This document shows, one piece after another, positions 2,073 to 52,863 of a DNA stretch of 64,000 bases. The position numbers were made by a program, and so were the translations under genes. The DNA comes from a virus (Duplodnaviria; Heunggongvirae; Uroviricota; Caudoviricetes), in IMG/VR virus record IMGVR_UViG_3300032312_001770, positions 64,001-128,000 of that record; one strand, written 5' to 3'. Numbering within the stretch: position 1 is the first letter of the stretch; each line of letters begins with the position of its first letter. Under the pieces are notes generated by a model that saw only the letters and a list, made by a program, of their open reading frames with translations, did no database searches and had not been told where the DNA came from.

Positions 2073-4814
2073 TTATTTTATATCTTGAACATCTATTTGA
2101 TATTTATCGGCAATTGAAACATCAGAAGAATTAATTCTAGTGATTTTTATCTTTTTACCTTTATTCAAACTAAAGTAAGGAGTATTTGATAATAAAGTTG
2201 AAGATGTTCCGTGAATGTAAAGAGGTAATGAAGCCGAAGCACCATAAGCAACTAAATCAGGATTACTATCAGCGTTTAATCTAATATAAGAACTTGTAGA
2301 TCCAACAACAGAATCAACTTTATATTGACCTGAGAAGTTAAATACAGAAGCAGTACCAACAAAGAAATTGTTTAATCTGAAAGTATCTCCCGTTTTAATA
2401 GAATTGTTTAATATTAAAGTATTACCAGACAAAGGAACCTCTAAAATATTACCCAATGTATATTGAATAGTTTTACTAAAATCAATATCAAAATTGAAAT
2501 CGGACCATAAATAAGCTGAATTTGGTAAAGAATTTGCTGTGTTATAATAAACAGGTAAATCTATACTACCAATTAAAAGAGCTTCGGTTGTTGTTATAGA
2601 AGTAGCTGTAGTAGTTGAAGGAACTGCTGTGTTAATATAAATATCTAACTTTTTATTTTGAGAAGCCAATTGAGTACCAGTTATCATAATATCAACACTT
2701 TGTTTATAAGCTAAATCAGTATCTAAAACAATTGTTAATTTGTCATTGTTTGGTAGTGCCAAAGCAACTTGGTCGTTATTAATAATATTTAATAAAAAGT
2801 TTTTATTTTCAGGAATTGTTAAGTTCAATGGAATCACACCACTAGTATTATATAAGTCAGTTGTATTAATATTATTAACACTTGTATATGAAGTCTCTCT
2901 ATTAAATAAAGATATAGAAACTGGTGTACCAGGATTTGTAACAACACTAATACTATCTGTACTGACTAATTGATTACTTGAATATAATCTTAATAAGTTT
3001 TCAAGATTTGATATCTTAGTATTTATAGTGGAAATATCTGTTTGTGTGTAAAGTAATTGTTGTAAAGCATTTAATTGGTCTTTTAAATCACCTTGTTCCG
3101 CCAATATATTCATAAAGCTATCATTTGTAGATGATAGTCTTGACATAGCTTGATTAAACAAATTCATACTAAATAAAGAGTTAATAGCCTCTGGATTATA
3201 GGCTTGTTGTGGATTGTCATTTACAATATTAAAGTTTAGATTTAAACTATAAGCATAAGAAGTACCATCTTGTTGACCATTAGAAACCATTTTCTTATAA
3301 ATAGGAAATCTAATTCCTATTTCTTCATCCACTGCATTGTTGTCTGGATTATCTAAGAAAGAAACACCATATAAATTTGTCTTAGTTGTAATAACTCCGG
3401 TTAAATCAGTTTTCTGAACAGTATAATACCATAAAATAGCATTATATTCAAAATCAGAAGGTGGTGTATTGTTAACTTCTAAGGCATTAAATTGGTCAAA
3501 GTTAGTTAATGTTCTATTAAATATATTCATCTTAACATAGTGACTAGTATTAAAATCAATACCAATACCATCAATTGTAGAACCATCAACAATTGGATTA
3601 TTAATATCACCAGTAACACCAAAGTAATCACCACTTCTTCTTAAAGAATCACCAGTTGCTGTTTCATATGTAAAATCAGGAGTATCAAATTGTGCAAAAT
3701 AAGAACCTGGATAATTTTGAGGAGTATTAACTAAAGGAGATGTAAATAACTCAGCACCTAAAATTTCAGGTTGATATTGACTCGGTAAAATAGGAAATGT
3801 TAAATTTGGTTTGTAGTTGACATCATAATTAGTTCTAAATAAAATATCAGGTGTAGCACCAACATGATCTGGAATTTGAGCCTGAACTTCAGTATAGTTT
3901 CTATTTGCTTCTTGAACATTAGAAATACCGGTTATTTCACCAATATATTGAACAAATCTATCATAAACTAATTTAACTTGACCAGATGTTTCAAATTCTG
4001 TGCCTAGTGTAGTATCAATATCAAAAACAATTCTTTGTCCTTGAGTAGCACCAGCTGGTGTAATAAAAAGAACAGTAGTATTTACACCTGTTTCATATTG
4101 AGAGTTTAGTAAAGGATAAAGACCTGAACTTAAAGGATATTCATAATTATAAATAGTAGAATTAGCAACATTGAAAATATTAACTTTATCACCTACTCTA
4201 AAATTAGTAGTACCTGCAAACTCAACTTCTAACTTATTTGTGTAGGGAATTACATTTGTTTCATAAAATGAAATAGCATCCCATTCAATAACTTGTCTTT
4301 CTCTCCATAGATATTCAGGTAAATAAGCATCATCATTAATATTATTTCTTTGAAACTCAGTAATATTACTAAAATATTCATCATCTGGAATAGCTGGTTC
4401 AAAATCAATAAGTTTTAACTTTTTAGCCCATTTGAAGAAAACTTTTTCAGTTGGAGTTTCTAAAGCATTTGTGTCATAATAATATTTAGTATTATTTAAT
4501 CTACTTTCTCTAATTACAACTTCTTGATTTGCTACATAGTTTCTTAATGATTCAACTATTTGTTCGTTATAAGTTGCAGGTGGTGTAGCATTAACTGACT
4601 TTTGAAATGAATTATCAAAGTCAAATACTATTTTATTTGACATTGTACCAGCAACTAAATTTTGTTTAGGTAAATTTAATAGAACAAACTTAGAGAAATA
4701 CATCTTGTAGTTTGAGTTCTGGTAAGCCGCTGATATATCTTCAGCCGCACCTGGGAAAGCATAAAATGAAGTTCCATTCGATTTTAAAAACTTATAAAGA
4801 GGTGTAGATGCCAT
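2073..4814 (-). CDS. Large putative virion structural protein
   Basis: 913 aa, T/N/S-rich, with a central coiled coil (LKDQLNALQQ...ISNLENL), in a structural gene cluster. Confidence 0.6.
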   Translation of the reverse strand: MASTPLYKFLKSNGTSFYAFPGAAEDISAAYQNSNYKMYFSKFVLLNLPKQNLVAGTMSNKIVFDFDNSFQKSVNATPPATYNEQIVESLRNYVANQEVVIRESRLNNTKYYYDTNALETPTEKVFFKWAKKLKLIDFEPAIPDDEYFSNITEFQRNNINDDAYLPEYLWRERQVIEWDAISFYETNVIPYTNKLEVEFAGTTNFRVGDKVNIFNVANSTIYNYEYPLSSGLYPLLNSQYETGVNTTVLFITPAGATQGQRIVFDIDTTLGTEFETSGQVKLVYDRFVQYIGEITGISNVQEANRNYTEVQAQIPDHVGATPDILFRTNYDVNYKPNLTFPILPSQYQPEILGAELFTSPLVNTPQNYPGSYFAQFDTPDFTYETATGDSLRRSGDYFGVTGDINNPIVDGSTIDGIGIDFNTSHYVKMNIFNRTLTNFDQFNALEVNNTPPSDFEYNAILWYYTVQKTDLTGVITTKTNLYGVSFLDNPDNNAVDEEIGIRFPIYKKMVSNGQQDGTSYAYSLNLNFNIVNDNPQQAYNPEAINSLFSMNLFNQAMSRLSSTNDSFMNILAEQGDLKDQLNALQQLLYTQTDISTINTKISNLENLLRLYSSNQLVSTDSISVVTNPGTPVSISLFNRETSYTSVNNINTTDLYNTSGVIPLNLTIPENKNFLLNIINNDQVALALPNNDKLTIVLDTDLAYKQSVDIMITGTQLASQNKKLDIYINTAVPSTTTATSITTTEALLIGSIDLPVYYNTANSLPNSAYLWSDFNFDIDFSKTIQYTLGNILEVPLSGNTLILNNSIKTGDTFRLNNFFVGTASVFNFSGQYKVDSVVGSTSSYIRLNADSNPDLVAYGASASLPLYIHGTSSTLLSNTPYFSLNKGKKIKITRINSSDVSIADKYQIDVQDIK

Positions 4815-4906
4815 TTAATTGTCAATTTATTTTATAATCTATATATAATTTTTCATATCTTCTGTTTCTAAAAAGGAAACAAGAAGTATTTAATAAATAT
4901 ATTATC

Positions 4907-19931: not shown

Positions 19932-20498
19932 TTATGGCTTTAAATAATCTTTGACTTTCATTAACATATAATCTGTAATTAAATCAGATGGATTTAGAGA
20001 GTTTAGATATCTAATATCTATTTTTACAGACTTACTCATTTCTTCTTCTTTAGATCCGTCACCTTTAGCAACAACTTCTTCATAATCTCTTTCATTCAAA
20101 GGAATTAAAAATGGATAATATTTATTAGAATTAGCTTTACTAATATAAAGAGGTTTCATATCTTCAAATTGAAAATCGTCTCTAATAACAATACCAGCTT
20201 CTTCTTCAAGTTCTCTTCTTAAAGCTTTCTCAACACTTTCACCTTGTTCAATACCACCACATACTAAAGTAACGTGATATTCTTGACCATCAACATATTT
20301 GAATGTAGGAATATATTCATATCTTAAAACAATTTGATTTGTCTCAATTAAAAAAGGAATACAAACAACACAATCTTTTTCTTTAAGAATAGACCAATCC
20401 TCAAACTGAACTACTTGAAAGTGTTTATCTTGATAAAGAACTTTGTCTTTATCATCATCAAATTCTGCCTTTGGTTTTAGCTTTGAAAATTTCTCCAC
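19932..20498 (-). CDS. NUDIX hydrolase
   Basis: Nudix box GGIEQGESVEKALRRELEEEAG. Confidence 0.9.
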   Translation of the reverse strand: MEKFSKLKPKAEFDDDKDKVLYQDKHFQVVQFEDWSILKEKDCVVCIPFLIETNQIVLRYEYIPTFKYVDGQEYHVTLVCGGIEQGESVEKALRRELEEEAGIVIRDDFQFEDMKPLYISKANSNKYYPFLIPLNERDYEEVVAKGDGSKEEEMSKSVKIDIRYLNSLNPSDLITDYMLMKVKDYLKP

Positions 20499-20529: not shown

Positions 20530-21165
20530 TTAATATCTGTAATTCTTGGTCGCTTTGCGGCATTTCAACTGACTCTTTATATTATTATTTTCTGAAGTAC
20601 CTAACTCTAACCGAGCATTCTTACGTTTCATAACTAAACCTTCAATCATATCAATAGGAGTTAATTTATCAAAGATATTTTTAAAATCATCTTTATAAGA
20701 CTTAACTCGATAAACATTCTCAGTTACTTTGAAAAGATATTCTTTTTCAGAATCTACTTGACCATAAATAGTATTAAGCAATTGAATTCTTTCTTCAAAT
20801 GTTTTACCTACAAGATATTCGCTATTAAATCCAAGAATATCAAAAATAACAAATTTATGATTAAAAACTTGATTGTTTTCGTCTGACTTAGACTTATTCA
20901 TATATTCACCATTCAAAATCATCCAGCCTTCGCCGCGATAAATATCTTTTATTTCATTATCAGAAATGTTAAAGTTAGTAAGTCTTTGATTGTGACGGTT
21001 CATAACAATAGTCTTAACACCATTTGTAAAGATAACACAATTTGAACCATTAAGTTTTGGCTGAGCAATCAAAGATCCATTATCCCAAAACTCTAATTCC
21101 GTATCAGGAATAGCGTTTTTGGGTCTTGGGGGAAAAATATAACGATAATTGAGGTACTTTGCCAT
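20530..21165 (-). CDS. ATP-dependent ligase or capping-family covalent nucleotidyltransferase (adenylation domain only; RNA ligase-like)
   Basis: Motif I QPKLNG, III ILNGE, IIIa FVIFDI, IV IEGLVMK, V LKCRK; no OB domain. Start at ATG 21165. Confidence 0.8.
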   Translation of the reverse strand: MAKYLNYRYIFPPRPKNAIPDTELEFWDNGSLIAQPKLNGSNCVIFTNGVKTIVMNRHNQRLTNFNISDNEIKDIYRGEGWMILNGEYMNKSKSDENNQVFNHKFVIFDILGFNSEYLVGKTFEERIQLLNTIYGQVDSEKEYLFKVTENVYRVKSYKDDFKNIFDKLTPIDMIEGLVMKRKNARLELGTSENNNIKSQLKCRKATKNYRY

Positions 21166-21184
21166 AAAACAAAGATAAGAAAAA

Positions 21185-21778
21185 CTAAGCGAACTGCCAA
21201 GACATTTGACCAAAAATTTGAGTCAAGTCCTCATTATGTTTACGAGAAGTTGAAATGTTTACTTTTGAGTTAAGAGCCATATTCAACTTGTAATCCATAA
21301 CTTCTAAAGGATTATGAACTTTAAGTTTTTTTCCATTGAAGTCAATTGTAATAAAAGAAGCACTTTCATTATGGAAAAAATCAACTTTATACTCTTTCTC
21401 TGAGGTAAATATTCCTCTCTTGTGTTTAAACTCAACATAGCCTAATCGGTTAGGAGTTGAAAATTCCTCATCGTCATAGCCATCTTTGATATATTTAGGA
21501 TAACGATTTTTATCATCAATAAGAATATCAATATCATTTGTATCTCTGTATATTAGACCAAAAATATTTAGTGCTAATGAACCACTAATGATATCATTGG
21601 GTAATTTATCTGAAATAAAATAAAGTAGGTCTTTATGTTTATCTAAAGCTTTTTCGGAAGCAGTGAAGTTAGCCTCACCACTAATAACTTTTAATTTGTA
21701 ATCTCTGAATTCTGTTTGTAGTTCAGATGGAGTTAAAAAGTTTGTATGTACCGAACCTAAACGATATGAGTTTGCCAT
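21185..21778 (-). CDS. Pol-beta-superfamily nucleotidyltransferase
   Basis: SGSLAL...RDTNDIDILI (GS + DxD motif), with a later VDFF strand. Confidence 0.75.
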   Translation of the reverse strand: MANSYRLGSVHTNFLTPSELQTEFRDYKLKVISGEANFTASEKALDKHKDLLYFISDKLPNDIISGSLALNIFGLIYRDTNDIDILIDDKNRYPKYIKDGYDDEEFSTPNRLGYVEFKHKRGIFTSEKEYKVDFFHNESASFITIDFNGKKLKVHNPLEVMDYKLNMALNSKVNISTSRKHNEDLTQIFGQMSWQFA

Positions 21779-50061: not shown

Positions 50062-50784
50062 ATGAAACTTAAAAAGTATAATGACTTTATTAAAGAGTCT
50101 TTTGGAACTTCTCAACAATATGCGAATTTCCTAACATCTAAAGCTATATCAACTGATATATTTAATGATAGCTTATTTGATGTTAAACAATTTGCTAGAG
50201 TTAGTAACTATAGATATTTAGTTGATTCAAAAGGACATGCTATTAATACAGAAGTTGATGATAATGAAAAGTATAAAATACTTTACACTTGTCAAATTCA
50301 ATACAGTTTAGTACCTGGTAAAAATGATTTTAATAAAGTTCTTGATAATCTAAATACTATTAATATATCTGTAGGTGAAATGATAGATAGAGTTGAAGCA
50401 GAGGGATTAAAACTTGAAAAAAGTGAGTATTGGTTAGATAAAACAACAGGACATGAAAGAGTTATTCATACTTTTTCTATATCATTTATAAGCGATGAAA
50501 TAAGCACAAAAGAACTAAAAGATACATTTGATATTTACAAAACATCACAAGATAAAGAATACTTAGATGGATTAAAAAGATTAAGACAAATCTATAAAGA
50601 AGACAATATAGACTTTGATAGATATATGGACACAACTGATGATGAAGAATATATTGAAGTTGGTGTATTTATAGGAGAAGATTTATACGGTGTAGCTTCA
50701 TATAATACACAAACTAAACAATTCACTATTGATGAGGACGAAATAGTTGCCTCGGTAAACGCTTACAGAGAAGAAAATCAATAA
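50062..50784 (+). CDS. Putative internal head protein
   Basis: MKLKKYNDFIKES start directly after aatatatactat. Confidence 0.55.
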   Translation: MKLKKYNDFIKESFGTSQQYANFLTSKAISTDIFNDSLFDVKQFARVSNYRYLVDSKGHAINTEVDDNEKYKILYTCQIQYSLVPGKNDFNKVLDNLNTINISVGEMIDRVEAEGLKLEKSEYWLDKTTGHERVIHTFSISFISDEISTKELKDTFDIYKTSQDKEYLDGLKRLRQIYKEDNIDFDRYMDTTDDEEYIEVGVFIGEDLYGVASYNTQTKQFTIDEDEIVASVNAYREENQ

Positions 50785-50813
50785 AAAAACCCACTCAAAT
50801 TGAGTGGGTTTTT
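50783..50813. terminator. Bidirectional terminator (CCCAC family)
   Basis: aaaaaaacccactca-aat-tgagtgggttttt at a convergent junction. Confidence 0.85.
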
Positions 50814-50820
50814 ACTTTAA

Positions 50821-52272
50821 TTAAAGCTTGATAGCCTTAATCTCATTGCAAAGAGCTTTCTTGTCTAACTCCATCATTTTCATGATGTCAAACACTTTGT
50901 CGCTGAACCCAGCCAAAGCAAAGACATTTTGTTCTGGAAACTGTAAAGTCCCCATTCCAGCAAGATCCCAAGAGTAAACGTATGGATTAGCACCAAACTT
51001 ACTCTTATACTTAGAGAACTCAGCAGATGGAGTTGTATAACCCATCCAACCTTGCATGTCTGACAAGATAATAACTCTGTCATACTTCTTATTAGCTCTA
51101 TCAAAGATAGCCTTAAAGTTTGTTCCACCACCTGAGAATCTGAAGCTACTTCTAATAGTCATTACAGAATCCATTGGATTATAAGACATATACTTAGCAT
51201 CAGTAGAGAAAGTCATAACATCACAGTTATTAACTTTAGCCAAGATAGCACCAAATAGTGAAGCAATCTCAGATGGCTTACCACTCATAGAACCAGAAAC
51301 ATCCATAACAACAAGTGTTTCGCCATCAAATACTGGTACGTTAGCAACAGAAATATCAAGTGCTTGGTTGATTGCCATAAGAACGTCTCTTACGTCTTTA
51401 GAAGAACCAATCTTACTGATTTCTTCATAAGCAGTTGAGAAACGGAACGGAAGAACTCTAGAGTTCTTAATCAATCTTTCATCAACTAACATTTCACAAG
51501 CTGATTTAACAGCAGTTGGAGCCTGAGTGATGATGTTTCTCAAGTTTCTAAGAAGGGCGAAGTAACCAATCTTCTTGGTAGAAATCAATTCAGACCAAGC
51601 ATCAGACTTCAATTTAGTCAAGTCTTCTTCAGACTCAGCTACTTGACCAGCTTGAGACAACATAGATTCCCAAGTTTGAGTATTTTTCAACTCACCTTTA
51701 ACAAGTGACTCAAGAGCCGCCTTGTTTCTAACAGTAGGAATTGGGTGAACAATGTTAACTAAGTCAACAAGTTTCACTTCTTTGTTATCACCTTTATACT
51801 TAGCCAATTGGTAACCATCAAACTTATCGAAAGCTTTAGCGAATCCTTTCTTCAAAGCATTTGGAAACTTAGGACTATCCTTAGAAGTCTTATAAGCCAA
51901 ATAGTATGACATGATTTCAGTCATATCATCAACACGAACAACTACTTTGTCGTAGAATTTTTTACCCCACTCGGCGCCCGATAGCTGTGAAGTTAATTCA
52001 CCAGCAAGGGCATGAGTAATACTTCTCATACCGAAACGGTCACGAGCAAAGATAGCCGCCTTAGCAACAAACTCTTTATCTTTCACTTTAGTAGAAAGTT
52101 TTCTCAATTCATCTAATGATGTTTGAGCATTTCTATAAAACTGGTCATTAACAAATGATGTTAATAAAAGTGATACTAAAGCTAGTTCATCAGATTGTGA
52201 ATAAGCTTGTCCACCTGCTAGGTTTTCAGTTAAAGTCTTTGCCTTTGGCATTGTTGTGTTAAATTTTGACAT
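50821..52272 (-). CDS. rsr: Ro60/Rsr TROVE-domain RNA-binding protein with a C-terminal vWA domain
   Basis: NLAGGQAY, FYR, GMRSI, FDxYQLAKY, TWES.LS, ALLRNLRNI, VLPFRF and vWA DVSGSM...TNF...LSDMQ motifs. Confidence 0.92.
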   Translation of the reverse strand: MSKFNTTMPKAKTLTENLAGGQAYSQSDELALVSLLLTSFVNDQFYRNAQTSLDELRKLSTKVKDKEFVAKAAIFARDRFGMRSITHALAGELTSQLSGAEWGKKFYDKVVVRVDDMTEIMSYYLAYKTSKDSPKFPNALKKGFAKAFDKFDGYQLAKYKGDNKEVKLVDLVNIVHPIPTVRNKAALESLVKGELKNTQTWESMLSQAGQVAESEEDLTKLKSDAWSELISTKKIGYFALLRNLRNIITQAPTAVKSACEMLVDERLIKNSRVLPFRFSTAYEEISKIGSSKDVRDVLMAINQALDISVANVPVFDGETLVVMDVSGSMSGKPSEIASLFGAILAKVNNCDVMTFSTDAKYMSYNPMDSVMTIRSSFRFSGGGTNFKAIFDRANKKYDRVIILSDMQGWMGYTTPSAEFSKYKSKFGANPYVYSWDLAGMGTLQFPEQNVFALAGFSDKVFDIMKMMELDKKALCNEIKAIKL

Positions 52273-52305
52273 AATCTATATTTTAATTTTTAATTTATTT
52301 TAAAC

Positions 52306-52345
52306 AAAAAAGACCAGATAAACATTTCTGTTAAATCTGGTCTTT
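52306..52345 (-). terminator. Intrinsic terminator between the ncRNA array and the Ro60 gene
   Basis: aaagaccagat...atctggtctttttt on the minus strand. Confidence 0.8.
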
Positions 52346-52712
52346 ATAATTTGCGCAAACAAGTAAATTTAGCCTAAGCGTTACAAAGAATTCTCCCGAA
52401 ACTTTGCCTATAGTTGTAGTGACCATATCACTCAGTTCTTTATTTAAAGGAAGTTTCTGAATTCCTTGACTAACCTCTTAAAAGAGTTTCAGGAGTCACC
52501 TGGACTTTTTCACTTTAATTTAGTATGTCCTTTCGGCTTCACCCAAATTCAGTAGCTTTGCTGTCGCTAAGCACTTTCTGTCATAGTTATAATTGATATA
52601 TCGAAGTATCTCAAACTATCGCTATGTCTGCGTTTTAATTATATTGACCAGAGTAAGTTATCAAAGAGTGTTTTTTTCTGAACCGAAGTAACTCTCTAAT
52701 TCACTACTGGAG
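52346..52712 (-). ncRNA. Array of related structured ncRNA units (candidate Y-like RNAs)
   Basis: Three clear units sharing TAG[TC][GC]A-N6/7-[GC]AG-W-WACTTC[GC] with closing stems, two partial copies and a CC-GAAA-GG tetraloop; no ORF in the track. Confidence 0.6.
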
Positions 52713-52863
52713 TATTTTAATTGTCTTTGTTTTATATCAGAAAATCAAAAAGTTTTAATTTTCTTCAAAAAAGTTTTTTTAATTTGTTTAGTATATATCA
52801 ACCTCTAAAATTTCGTTTTTTTCAAAGGTGGATTGTTTATAGTCTACAAAGATAGTAGTTATA

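What the first reader, a model, noticed from the sequence alone, without database searches (positions are those of the whole stretch)
50821..52860. Phage Ro60/TROVE gene with an upstream array of related structured ncRNAs (candidate new Y-RNA class)
The ~590-bp gap upstream of the Ro60 gene has no ORF in the track, is visibly less AT-rich in its central part, and is closed by its own terminator (52345-52306). On the gene strand it holds three hairpin units: 52710-52648, 52626-52582 and 52474-52413. They share TAG-TGA/CGA/TCA-N6/7-(G/C)AG-W-WACTTC(G/C): GTAGTGAATTAGAGAGTTACTTCGG, ATAGCGATAGTTTGAGATACTTCGA, TTAGTCAAGGAATTCAGAAACTTCCT. Each has a closing stem, and the stem sequences differ while pairing is kept (agagagt/actcttt, tagtttga/tcaatta, attcag/ctgagt). 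Units 1 and 2 also share a 3' TAACT. There are two partial copies and a GNRA hairpin. Ro60 proteins are known to bind Y RNAs encoded next to them, but I see no tRNA-like T-arm of the YrlA type here. This may be a multi-RNA Ro60 RNP used for RNA decay, repair or decoying, and the window also encodes an RNA-ligase-like enzyme.
Basis: partly seen in the sequence, partly recalled or inferred. Interest (0 to 1): 0.88.

Follow-up and report, generated by a model that had tools for sequence, protein, structure and literature searches.

The report
Phage Ro60 with two Y RNAs
The gap in front of this huge phage's Ro60 gene encodes two partner RNAs of the known Y-RNA kind, a 63-base hairpin and a 277-base RNA that carries a large clade-specific folded domain where bacterial Y RNAs carry a tRNA look-alike.

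Summary
The Ro60 gene, the ORF-free gap, its higher G+C and its terminator are all real.

- **Unit 1** (52710-52648) is a hairpin with strong compensatory change. A covariance model built from it has this as its only match in the window.
- **Where that model matches elsewhere.** It hits 75 related phage loci and 44 sites beside Ro60 genes in 40 other loci, mostly Bacteroidota. Every hit is on the Ro60 strand.
- **Link to YrlA.** In the bacterial loci the same basal module (UAGYGA, stem, GUUACUUC on the 5' side, AAYUUWCUC on the 3' side) carries YrlA-type tRNA-like RNAs.
- **Unit 2** is the 5' strand of a long-range stem that closes 277 nt later, just before the terminator.
- **The enclosed ~220-nt domain** is not tRNA-like. 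I found it only in this phage clade.
- **Unit 3** is an optional insert inside that domain, not a paralogue.

So this is a Ro60-Y RNA locus, as already shown for Thermus phage phiLo and mycobacteriophages. Its new feature is the oversized Y RNA. Near-complete relatives also encode an RNase II/R-like exonuclease and further Y RNAs inside tRNA arrays.

The scan reached the same reading on a related genome (e1-5386636). No expression or binding data exist.

The parts
50821..52272 (-). Ro60 gene (483 aa, TROVE ring plus vWA domain with a DVSGS MIDAS motif)
   Evidence: Pfam TROVE 1.2e-17, with vWA_Ro60 and VWA_CoxE just under their cut-offs. The closest solved structure is Thermus phage phiLo Ro60 (9KOP/9L5Y), E 1e-22 over the full length.
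50784..50812 (-). Hairpin plus U-run after the Ro60 stop codon (likely terminator)
   Evidence: Read directly from the sequence.
52306..52345 (-). Hairpin plus U-run that closes the RNA locus, 33 nt before the Ro60 ATG
   Evidence: Sequence. The outer stem GACCAGA/UCUGGUC is almost invariant in relatives, and the inner stem varies with compensation.
52648..52710 (-). Y1, a short Y RNA. Layout: closing stem CCAG/CUGG, internal loop UAGUGA opposite AACUUACU, a 10-bp covarying stem, and an apical loop with UUACUUCG and an A-rich run.
   Evidence: RNAalifold and pair counts. Model R1 scores 76.4 bits, E 1e-16, and this is its only hit in the window and in the 134.6-kb record.
52355..52631 (-). Y2, a 277-nt long Y RNA: a basal module formed by its two ends, enclosing an apical domain of about 220 nt
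   Evidence: RNAalifold predicts the long-range closing helix on 63 and on 36 sequences. It forms in 36 of 36 single-sequence folds.
52602..52631 (-).
   Evidence: 18 modelled pairs are 98% paired; 9 pairs show change on both sides; slid controls give 22-54%.
52355..52378 (-). Y2 3' basal strand: CUUAGGCUA, AAAUUUACU, UGUUUGC
   Evidence: Same test. The layout matches the 3' strand of Y1 and of the bacterial units.
52379..52601 (-). Y2 apical domain. In order: a small variable hairpin; a hairpin with loop AGCGACAGC (52572-52555); a UACU/AGUG helix enclosing a variable hairpin; single-stranded AAAAAGUCC; two small hairpins; the optional insert; a hairpin with loop UAUGG (consensus GAGAUGG) (52432-52418); and a hairpin GCAAAG/CUUUGU (52407-52383).
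   Evidence: 28 modelled pairs are 84% paired against 42-54% when slid. There is no T or D arm and no Rfam match. A sequence profile finds the domain only in the phage clade.
52431..52467 (-).
   Evidence: Both helices covary. A pattern for the insert is missing in 28 of 63 distinct relatives.
52792..52832 (-). Conserved inverted repeat followed by GATATATA. A possible promoter or operator, or the 5' end of the primary transcript.
   Evidence: A strict pattern finds it in 54 of 97 loci, and the stem covaries. It lies 20-148 nt upstream of Y1. Its function is inferred only.

Best explanation
The locus is a phage Ro60-Y RNA cassette. A transcript that starts upstream of 52712, probably near the conserved GATATATA block at about 52792, yields two RNAs.

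- **Y1** is a 63-nt hairpin.
- **Y2** is 277 nt.

Each RNA has a basal module made by pairing its own 5' and 3' ends. Inside that module a conserved internal loop, UAGYGA opposite AAYUUACU, is the inferred Ro60 docking site.

A terminator 33 nt before the ATG ends most transcripts. I infer that read-through supplies the Ro60 mRNA.

By analogy with Deinococcus Rsr/Yrn1/PNPase and with phiLo Ro60/Yrl/PNPase, the RNAs would gate the Ro60 ring and tether it to a partner. The clade-specific apical domain of Y2 is the candidate tether. Its partner could be a host exonuclease or the RNase II/R-like enzyme that related phage genomes encode.

Shown here: the structures, their conservation, their homology to the bacterial module, and their linkage to Ro60 genes. 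Inferred: transcription, processing, Ro60 binding, and the identity of the partner.
For: - **The protein is a Ro60.** Pfam and PDB matches agree.
- **The gap is conserved about as well as the gene.** Identity to LR745206 is 70% for the gap and 76% overall.
- **The gap travels with Ro60.** The upstream gene differs between relatives while the gap stays.
- **Y1 structure is supported.** 12 of 16 pairs have compensatory change and the covariation score is 0.52 against 0.15 in shuffles.
- **Y2 basal module is supported.** 98% of cells are paired, and the closing helix changes on both sides in many lineages.
- **Model R1 is specific.**
  - It has a single hit in the window and in the phage record.
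  - It has one hit per locus in 75 of 87 relatives. All are on the Ro60 strand, 330-450 nt upstream; the other 12 loci lack upstream DNA.
  - It has 44 hits, all on the Ro60 strand, in 40 bacterial and other-phage loci.
  - In three whole bacterial genomes its only significant hits sit beside Ro60.
- **The module belongs to YrlA-type RNAs.** The bacterial units with this module carry T and D arms that align with Salmonella YrlA. They hit RF02553 at E down to 6e-9.
- **There are precedents.**
  - Two Y-like RNAs upstream of phiLo Ro60 bind it and form a complex with PNPase (PMC12135203).
  - YrlA and YrlB of M. smegmatis are processed from one precursor upstream of rsr (PMC4201824).
Against: - There are no transcript, processing or binding data. 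The RNA ends are inferred.
- The loop motifs (UAGUGAA, UAGCGAU) differ from the published GNCGAA(N)G. RF02553 gives no hit in the gap even at E < 10.
- The sizes, 63 and 277 nt, fall outside the 80-130 nt given for characterised Y RNAs.
- The inner basal stem of Y2 competes with a local hairpin in single-sequence folds, 12 against 12 of 36.
- A long structured RNA that ends in a terminator just before the ORF is also what a cis-acting leader looks like.
- The aligned sequences are related, so pair counts overstate the number of independent events.
Confidence: 0.75

Rival explanations
1. The roughly 430-nt RNA is mainly a cis-acting leader. Ro60, or some other ligand, binds it and sets how often the terminator at 52345-52306 is read through. 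This would autoregulate Ro60 synthesis, and no stable trans-acting RNAs would be made.
For: The terminator lies 33 nt before the ATG, and no separate promoter is visible between them. This layout is kept in relatives. The outer terminator stem is unusually constant in sequence.
Against: The same basal module occurs in tandem arrays of up to six units before bacterial Ro60 genes. It also occurs inside tRNA arrays more than 100 kb from Ro60 in a related phage. Neither placement fits a leader. I found no alternative antiterminator pairing, and the Y1 stem and the terminator stem do not covary. This reading can coexist with the Y-RNA reading.
Confidence: 0.12
2. One reading: three or more paralogous small hairpin RNAs of 45-65 nt, each an independent Ro60 ligand of a new class.
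For: Units 1 and 2 share UAGYGA-N9-WUACUUCG. The AGCGA motif recurs in an apical hairpin loop. Twelve of 36 single-sequence folds give the local unit 2 hairpin.
Against: The long-range closure of unit 2 is predicted on alignments and forms in 36 of 36 single folds. Unit 3 lacks the conserved motif and is dispensable. The module is that of the known YrlA family.
Confidence: 0.05
3. The RNAs are structured and expressed but act without Ro60, for example as decoys or sponges for a host RNA-binding protein. Their position next to Ro60 would then be historical.
For: LR756502 (642 kb) has a Y-like RNA but gave no TROVE match. Earlier notes of this scan and Burroughs and Aravind, as cited there, raise Ro-independent tRNA-like RNAs.
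Against: Every one of the 75 phage loci with enough upstream DNA keeps Y1 before Ro60. All 44 hits in the 40 other loci are on the Ro60 strand.
Confidence: 0.06

Closest known systems
Thermus phage phiLo Ro60 with Yrl1 and Yrl2 (PMC12135203; PDB 9KOP, 9L5Y)
   Same: A phage-encoded Ro60 with two Y-like RNA genes directly upstream on the same strand. It is also the closest solved protein (E 1e-22). Each RNA is a 5'-3' stem with an internal loop that bears a CGA-type motif.
   Different: The phiLo RNAs are of ordinary Y-RNA size. Here one is a 63-nt minimal hairpin and the other is 277 nt with a multi-hairpin apical domain. The host phylum and the phage type (400-630-kb genomes) differ. Nothing has been tested biochemically here.
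Bacterial and mycobacteriophage YrlA and YrlB (Rfam RF02553; Chen et al. 2014, PMC4201824; Wang et al. 2018, 10.1101/312249)
   Same: The genes are encoded upstream of Ro60, often several in a row. Their layout is a basal stem, a conserved loop motif, then YUAY (here UUAC or AUAC). The Bacteroidota units that share the phage's module have YrlA T and D arms. Y1 resembles the 'long hairpin' second Y RNA (YrlB, Yrn2).
   Different: Neither phage RNA in the window has a tRNA-like domain, and RF02553 gives no hit. The Y1 loop is A-rich, not pyrimidine-rich. The apical domain of Y2 has no counterpart in the bacterial loci or in 301 sampled Bacteroidota genomes.
Deinococcus radiodurans Rsr with Yrn1 and PNPase (RYPER), and Rsr acting with RNase II and RNase PH (as summarised in PMC4201824)
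   Same: This is the working model: the Y RNA tethers the Ro60 ring to a 3'-5' exonuclease and gates the ring. Related phage genomes encode an RNase II/R-type enzyme.
   Different: No PNPase or RNase PH gene was found in the phage genomes searched. The RNase II/R gene lies 40-85 kb from Ro60. In Deinococcus the RNase II-linked role was carried out by Y-RNA-free Rsr.
Metazoan Y RNAs
   Same: A terminal stem formed by the two ends, an internal loop or bulge as the Ro60 site, and a variable apical effector region. Some relatives have UGGUCA in the loop, which recalls the metazoan GGUCCGA.
   Different: There is no detectable sequence homology (no RF00019 hit). Transcription and 3' ends differ, and so do the sizes.

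Membership tests
Ro60 / TROVE protein | TROVE HEAT-repeat ring followed by a vWA domain with a MIDAS motif | tested here: met
   Pfam TROVE 64.7 bits against a cut-off of 23. vWA_Ro60 and VWA_CoxE fall just below their cut-offs. DVSGS is in the sequence. Full-length match to phiLo Ro60.
Y RNA (Ro60 partner RNA, general) | Encoded close to the Ro60 gene and on the same strand | tested here: met
   Y1 and Y2 lie 83-438 nt upstream on the same strand. The same holds for 75 hits in 87 relatives and for 44 of 44 hits in the 40 other loci.
Y RNA (Ro60 partner RNA, general) | Long stem formed by pairing of the RNA's 5' and 3' ends | tested here: met
   Y1. Y2.
Y RNA (Ro60 partner RNA, general) | Conserved Ro60-binding motif on the 5' strand (metazoan GGUCCGA; bacterial GNCGAA(N)G or CGAA) | tested here: inconclusive
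   The loops read UAGUGAA (Y1) and UAGCGAU (Y2). Bacterial units with the same module read UAGCGAA, which contains CGAA. The position is equivalent to the loop in the RF02553 consensus. The letters are not identical.
Y RNA (Ro60 partner RNA, general) | Bound by Ro60 and stabilised by it | not testable with these tools
   Needs pull-down, EMSA or a knock-out.
Y RNA (Ro60 partner RNA, general) | Length of about 80-130 nt (PMC4201824) | tested here: not met
   The paired cores are 63 nt (Y1) and 277 nt (Y2). True ends are unknown.
YrlA (Rfam RF02553) | tRNA-like apical module: T arm, closed acceptor-like hairpin, D arm | tested here: not met
   ARAGORN finds nothing in the window. There is no tRNA or YrlA hit in the gap at E < 10. 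No T or D arm sequence appears in the alignment. Bacterial relatives do have them, and a related 634-kb phage has one in a tRNA array.
YrlA (Rfam RF02553) | Score at or above the Rfam gathering cut-off of 69 bits | tested here: not met
   No hit. Even clear Bacteroidota YrlA units reach only 28-46 bits, so this cut-off is strict for the lineage.
YrlA (Rfam RF02553) | Conserved YUAY just after the basal stem | tested here: met
   UUAC in Y1 and AUAC in Y2 are nearly invariant.
YrlB / Yrn2-type second Y RNA | [quoted passage not shown] | tested here: inconclusive
   Y1 is a long hairpin without a tRNA-like part, but its loop is A-rich. Short units with the same A-rich loop sit beside bacterial Ro60 genes, for example in Hymenobacter glacieicola.
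Riboswitch or attenuator leader | Known aptamer followed by a terminator with an alternative antiterminator | tested here: not met
   A terminator is present. No Rfam cis-regulatory family matches, and I found no covarying alternative pairing.

The most novel reading that the evidence does not exclude
Y2 is the first of a class of 'giant' Y RNAs. In these, the tRNA-like effector module is replaced by a multi-hairpin domain of about 220 nt. That domain would recruit a phage-chosen partner, most plausibly the phage's own RNase II/R-like exonuclease, to the Ro60 ring. Huge phages would then carry a complete, self-encoded machine for degrading structured RNA. The machine could be used on host rRNA and tRNA, or against RNA-based defence, and it sits beside the ribonucleotide reductase genes.
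Probability: 0.18. Interest if true: 0.8.

Novelty: new variant of a known kind. Interest (0 to 1): 0.58.

Why it matters
Y RNAs are thought to work as modular adaptors: a constant Ro60-binding stem plus a variable effector module that picks the partner. In bacteria, the tRNA-like module of YrlA is the only effector module solved at high resolution, and its partner is still unknown.

This locus offers a natural module swap. The stem stays the same, and a 220-nt domain of another kind sits on it. The swap is conserved across dozens of huge-phage genomes. That gives a direct test of the adaptor idea: ask what the new domain binds.

The work also yields a basal-module consensus and a covariance model. 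The model finds Y RNAs, including short ones without a tRNA-like part, beside Ro60 genes in Bacteroidota and other phyla. The Rfam YrlA model stays below its cut-off there or finds nothing.

The basic arrangement is already known, so the advance is incremental.

Tried and rejected
- **"Rfam has no YrlA model."** I first inferred this, and it was wrong. Earlier scan notes named RF02553. One search shows it matches the Bacteroidota units below its cut-off. The null result in the window therefore means "no tRNA-like module".
It is at most an alternative conformer.
- **RNAalifold's alternative register for Y2** (UAGC with GCUA). It has some covariation. I preferred the register that matches Y1 and the bacterial units, but the two are not resolved.
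- **AAACTTTTT-N13-ATATAAAA as the promoter.** It is unique in the window but absent in L001 and L010, so it is not essential.
- **Covariation between the terminator stem and the Y1 closing stem** (an attenuation idea). Only one lineage suggested it, and others contradict it.
- **Mimicry of a host RNA by the apical domain.**
  - The gap gave no meaningful Rfam match; its only hits had E above 1.
  - The profile has no hit in the bacterial loci.
  - BLAST gives only chance-level 25-40-nt matches in 301 Bacteroidota genomes.
- **RtcB or PNPase as an encoded partner.** Neither was found in five related records.
- **Sub-threshold RF02553 hits in the phage genomes.** Most are partial matches (model positions 30-81) of the kind that tandem tRNAs give. 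The control genomes give such hits too.
- **The window's ligase.** It is 30 kb away and of the DNA-ligase type.
Full report
**What is at the coordinates**

The minus strand of 50821-52272 encodes a 483-aa protein. Its TROVE domain scores 1.2e-17, and it has a vWA domain with a DVSGS MIDAS motif. Its closest solved relative is the Ro60 of Thermus phage phiLo, aligned over the full length at E 1e-22. Deinococcus Rsr and Xenopus Ro60 follow.

The 591 nt upstream (52273-52863) hold no ORF of 40 aa or more on the gene strand. The centre of this gap has G+C of 0.33-0.37 against 0.18-0.25 in its flanks. The gap folds far better than shuffles, with z = -4.7. A hairpin with a U-run sits at 52345-52306, 33 nt before the ATG.

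The window lies in a 134.6-kb IMG/VR virus record estimated at 30% complete. Its relatives are phage genomes of 436-634 kb, among them LR745206. Neighbouring genes are a class I ribonucleotide reductase large subunit, a DnaB-type helicase, a DNA methylase and another helicase.

**Relatives**

The Ro60 protein brought in three sets of loci.
- 26 IMG/VR loci at 67-99% identity.
- 80 metagenome loci at 71-98% identity.
- 36 loci from bacterial genome assemblies at 41-61% identity. These are mostly Bacteroidota MAGs, plus the isolate Hymenobacter glacieicola.

The gap is conserved about as well as the gene: 70% identity to LR745206 for the gap against 76% overall. It stays with Ro60 while the upstream gene changes between relatives.

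**Y1**

- On 38 sequences, RNAalifold gives a closing stem, an internal loop and a 10-bp stem. Twelve of the 16 pairs show compensatory change.
- 94.2% of cells are paired, against 74.9% in shuffles and 35-53% with slid partners. The covariation score is 0.52 against 0.15.
- A covariance model built on this alignment (R1) has a single hit in the window (76.4 bits, E 1e-16) and in the whole phage record.
- In 87 distinct related loci it gives 75 hits. There is one per locus, all on the Ro60 strand and 330-450 nt upstream. The 12 loci without a hit lack upstream DNA.

**The module is not phage-specific**

A simple pattern for UAGYGA-N8-11-UACUUC first showed copies upstream of Ro60 in many bacterial loci, up to six in a row. 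R1 then gave 44 hits in 40 bacterial and other-phage loci (240 kb, both strands), every one on the Ro60 strand. In three whole bacterial genomes its only significant hits sit beside Ro60.

Reading these units shows what they are.
- **Long units.** Many carry a T arm, a closed hairpin and a D arm between the two strands of the module, in that order. That is the YrlA architecture.
- **Match to Salmonella.** These arms align with the published Salmonella YrlA effector module (sequence from 10.1101/312249).
- **Match to Rfam.** The units hit Rfam YrlA (RF02553) at 28-46 bits, with E down to 6e-9, below the 69-bit cut-off.
- **YUAY.** The UUAC of GUUACUUC corresponds to the conserved YUAY of YrlA (PMC4201824).
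- **Short units.** The same loci also hold units of 65-85 nt without a tRNA-like part and with the same A-rich loop as Y1, for example in Hymenobacter.

Y1 is therefore a member of a widespread short Y-RNA type. It is comparable to the 'long hairpin' second Y RNAs, YrlB and Yrn2.

**Y2**

- **The pairing.** Its 5' strand (52631-52602) pairs with 52378-52355, just before the terminator.
- **Same layout as Y1.** The 3' strand has the same order as in Y1: inner stem, then AAAUUUACU, then closing stem.
- **Prediction on alignments.** RNAalifold finds the long-range closing helix by itself on 63 and on 36 sequences.
- **Lineage changes.** The helix changes on both sides in many lineages (for example GCAGACA/UGUUUGC, GAGGACA/UGUCCUC, GAAGGCA/UGCCUUC).
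- **Pair counts.** My Y1-like model of 18 pairs is 98% paired. Nine pairs change on both sides, and slid controls give 22-54%.
- **Single-sequence folds.** The closing helix forms in 36 of 36 folds. A conformational alternative cannot be excluded.

**The apical domain of Y2**

The enclosed domain (52601-52379) contains several helices with compensatory change. The 28 modelled pairs are 84% paired, against 42-54% when slid.

Its 'TAGTCA' half is not conserved. A pattern for the insert is missing in 28 of 63 distinct sequences.

The domain has no T or D arm. ARAGORN finds nothing in the window, and Rfam gives only chance-level matches (E above 1) in the gap, none of them to tRNA or YrlA. A profile of the domain finds all 14 held-out phage loci. 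In the bacterial and other-phage loci its best match is a chance-level E of 0.05. BLAST gives only chance-level matches in 301 sampled Bacteroidota genomes.

**Wider repertoire in relatives**

The 634-kb relative LR745206 holds three more R1 hits, 100-150 kb from Ro60. All of them lie inside tRNA arrays.
- A short unit next to tRNA-Trp.
- A full YrlA-type unit with T and D arms, between tRNA-Gly and tRNA-Ala.
- A unit with a T arm only, between tRNA-Val and tRNA-Thr.

The last type recurs in a 476-kb relative. It also recurs in LR756502, which gave no TROVE match.

The absence of a tRNA-like Y RNA is therefore true of this window and of the 134.6-kb record. It may not be true of the whole phage.

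Four near-complete relatives have no RtcB and no RNase PH or PNPase domain. All four encode a protein of about 630-657 aa with an OB fold, CSD2, RNB and S1 domains, which is the RNase II/R architecture. The gene lies 40-85 kb from Ro60.

A contig with 99% Ro60 identity to the window has this gene 47 kb upstream of Ro60. The same offset would fall beyond the end of the window's own record. Such genes are rare in the phage collection, at 42 of 50,697 records.

**How it most likely works**

Shown: two conserved structured RNAs, homology of their basal module to that of YrlA-type RNAs, and strict linkage to Ro60 genes.

Inferred from established work:
- Y RNAs dock on Ro60 through the basal stem and loop. 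They gate the ring and tether it to exonucleases (RYPER in Deinococcus; Rsr with RNase II and RNase PH; PMC4201824).
- In phage phiLo, two upstream Y-like RNAs bind the phage Ro60 and form a ternary complex with host PNPase (PMC12135203).

By analogy, Y1 and Y2 would be made from one transcript that mostly stops at the terminator. Read-through would supply the Ro60 mRNA. The apical domain of Y2 would select a partner. Host PNPase and the phage RNase II/R-like enzyme are candidates. I have no evidence for either beyond co-occurrence.

**Novelty and verdict**

The arrangement is known from mycobacteriophages (2014) and phiLo (2025). Two things are new.
- A 277-nt Y RNA whose effector module is a clade-specific multi-hairpin domain rather than a tRNA mimic.
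- The recognition that short Y RNAs and this basal-module consensus are widespread beside Ro60 genes of Bacteroidota and other phyla, below or outside the reach of the Rfam model.

A note of this same scan on a related genome (e1-5386636) reached the same reading. That is not independent evidence. I score interest at 0.58 and class this as a new variant of a known kind.

Noticed in passing
L160:234-375, L161:196-302, L159:160-231 (LR745206); L163 about 208-325; L162:199-306 (LR756502): Related huge phages carry further Y-like RNAs inside tRNA arrays, 100-150 kb from Ro60. One is a full YrlA type with T and D arms. LR756502 has such an RNA but gave no TROVE match.
   Followed up: partly
L150:1129-3006 (-); also G001, G002, G003, G004 and LR745206 at 195757-196752: Relatives encode an RNase II/R-type exonuclease (OB_RNB, CSD2, RNB and S1 domains) 40-85 kb from Ro60. 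It is rare among phage records (42 of 50,697) and is a candidate Ro60 partner.
   Followed up: partly
window 52792-52832 (-): A conserved inverted repeat with a covarying stem, followed by GATATATA, lies 20-148 nt upstream of Y1 in at least 54 of 97 loci. It may be a promoter or operator, or the 5' end of the transcript.
   Followed up: partly
L021, L022, L023: 3001-5130: The Ro60 match spans about 2130 nt instead of 1449. This points to an insertion of about 680 nt inside the gene (intron, intein or homing element).
   Followed up: no
L014 about 2890-2990; L017 and L025, between terminator and ATG: An extra, G+C-richer element of about 70-100 nt is inserted between the Y-RNA terminator and the Ro60 start. 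It has shared sequence blocks and no Rfam match.
   Followed up: partly
L029 (crAss001) 4693-4836 and about 5096: The 900-nt unannotated gap downstream of the crAss001 TROVE gene holds a 144-nt match to the Rfam tRNA model and one copy of the UAGUGA...UUACUUC pattern. R1 did not reach E 0.1 there.
   Followed up: no
window 52572-52555 and 52623-52618 (-): The loop of an apical hairpin (AGCGACAGC) repeats the basal loop motif UAGCGA. In a divergent subclade both change in parallel, to UGGUCA and (C)UGGUCA or UAGUCA. This is a single lineage split, so the evidence is weak.
   Followed up: partly
window 20530-21213 (-) and 19932-20498 (-): A small ATP-dependent ligase (DNA_ligase_A_M 1.3e-9; RNA_ligase below its cut-off) sits next to a NUDIX protein.
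   Followed up: partly
L116:315-1097 and L117:2146-2940: Two MAG contigs, binned as Patescibacteria and Bacteroidota, carry nearly the same array of six Y RNAs (four YrlA-type, two short) before Ro60. A shared mobile or viral origin, or mis-binning, is possible.
   Followed up: no
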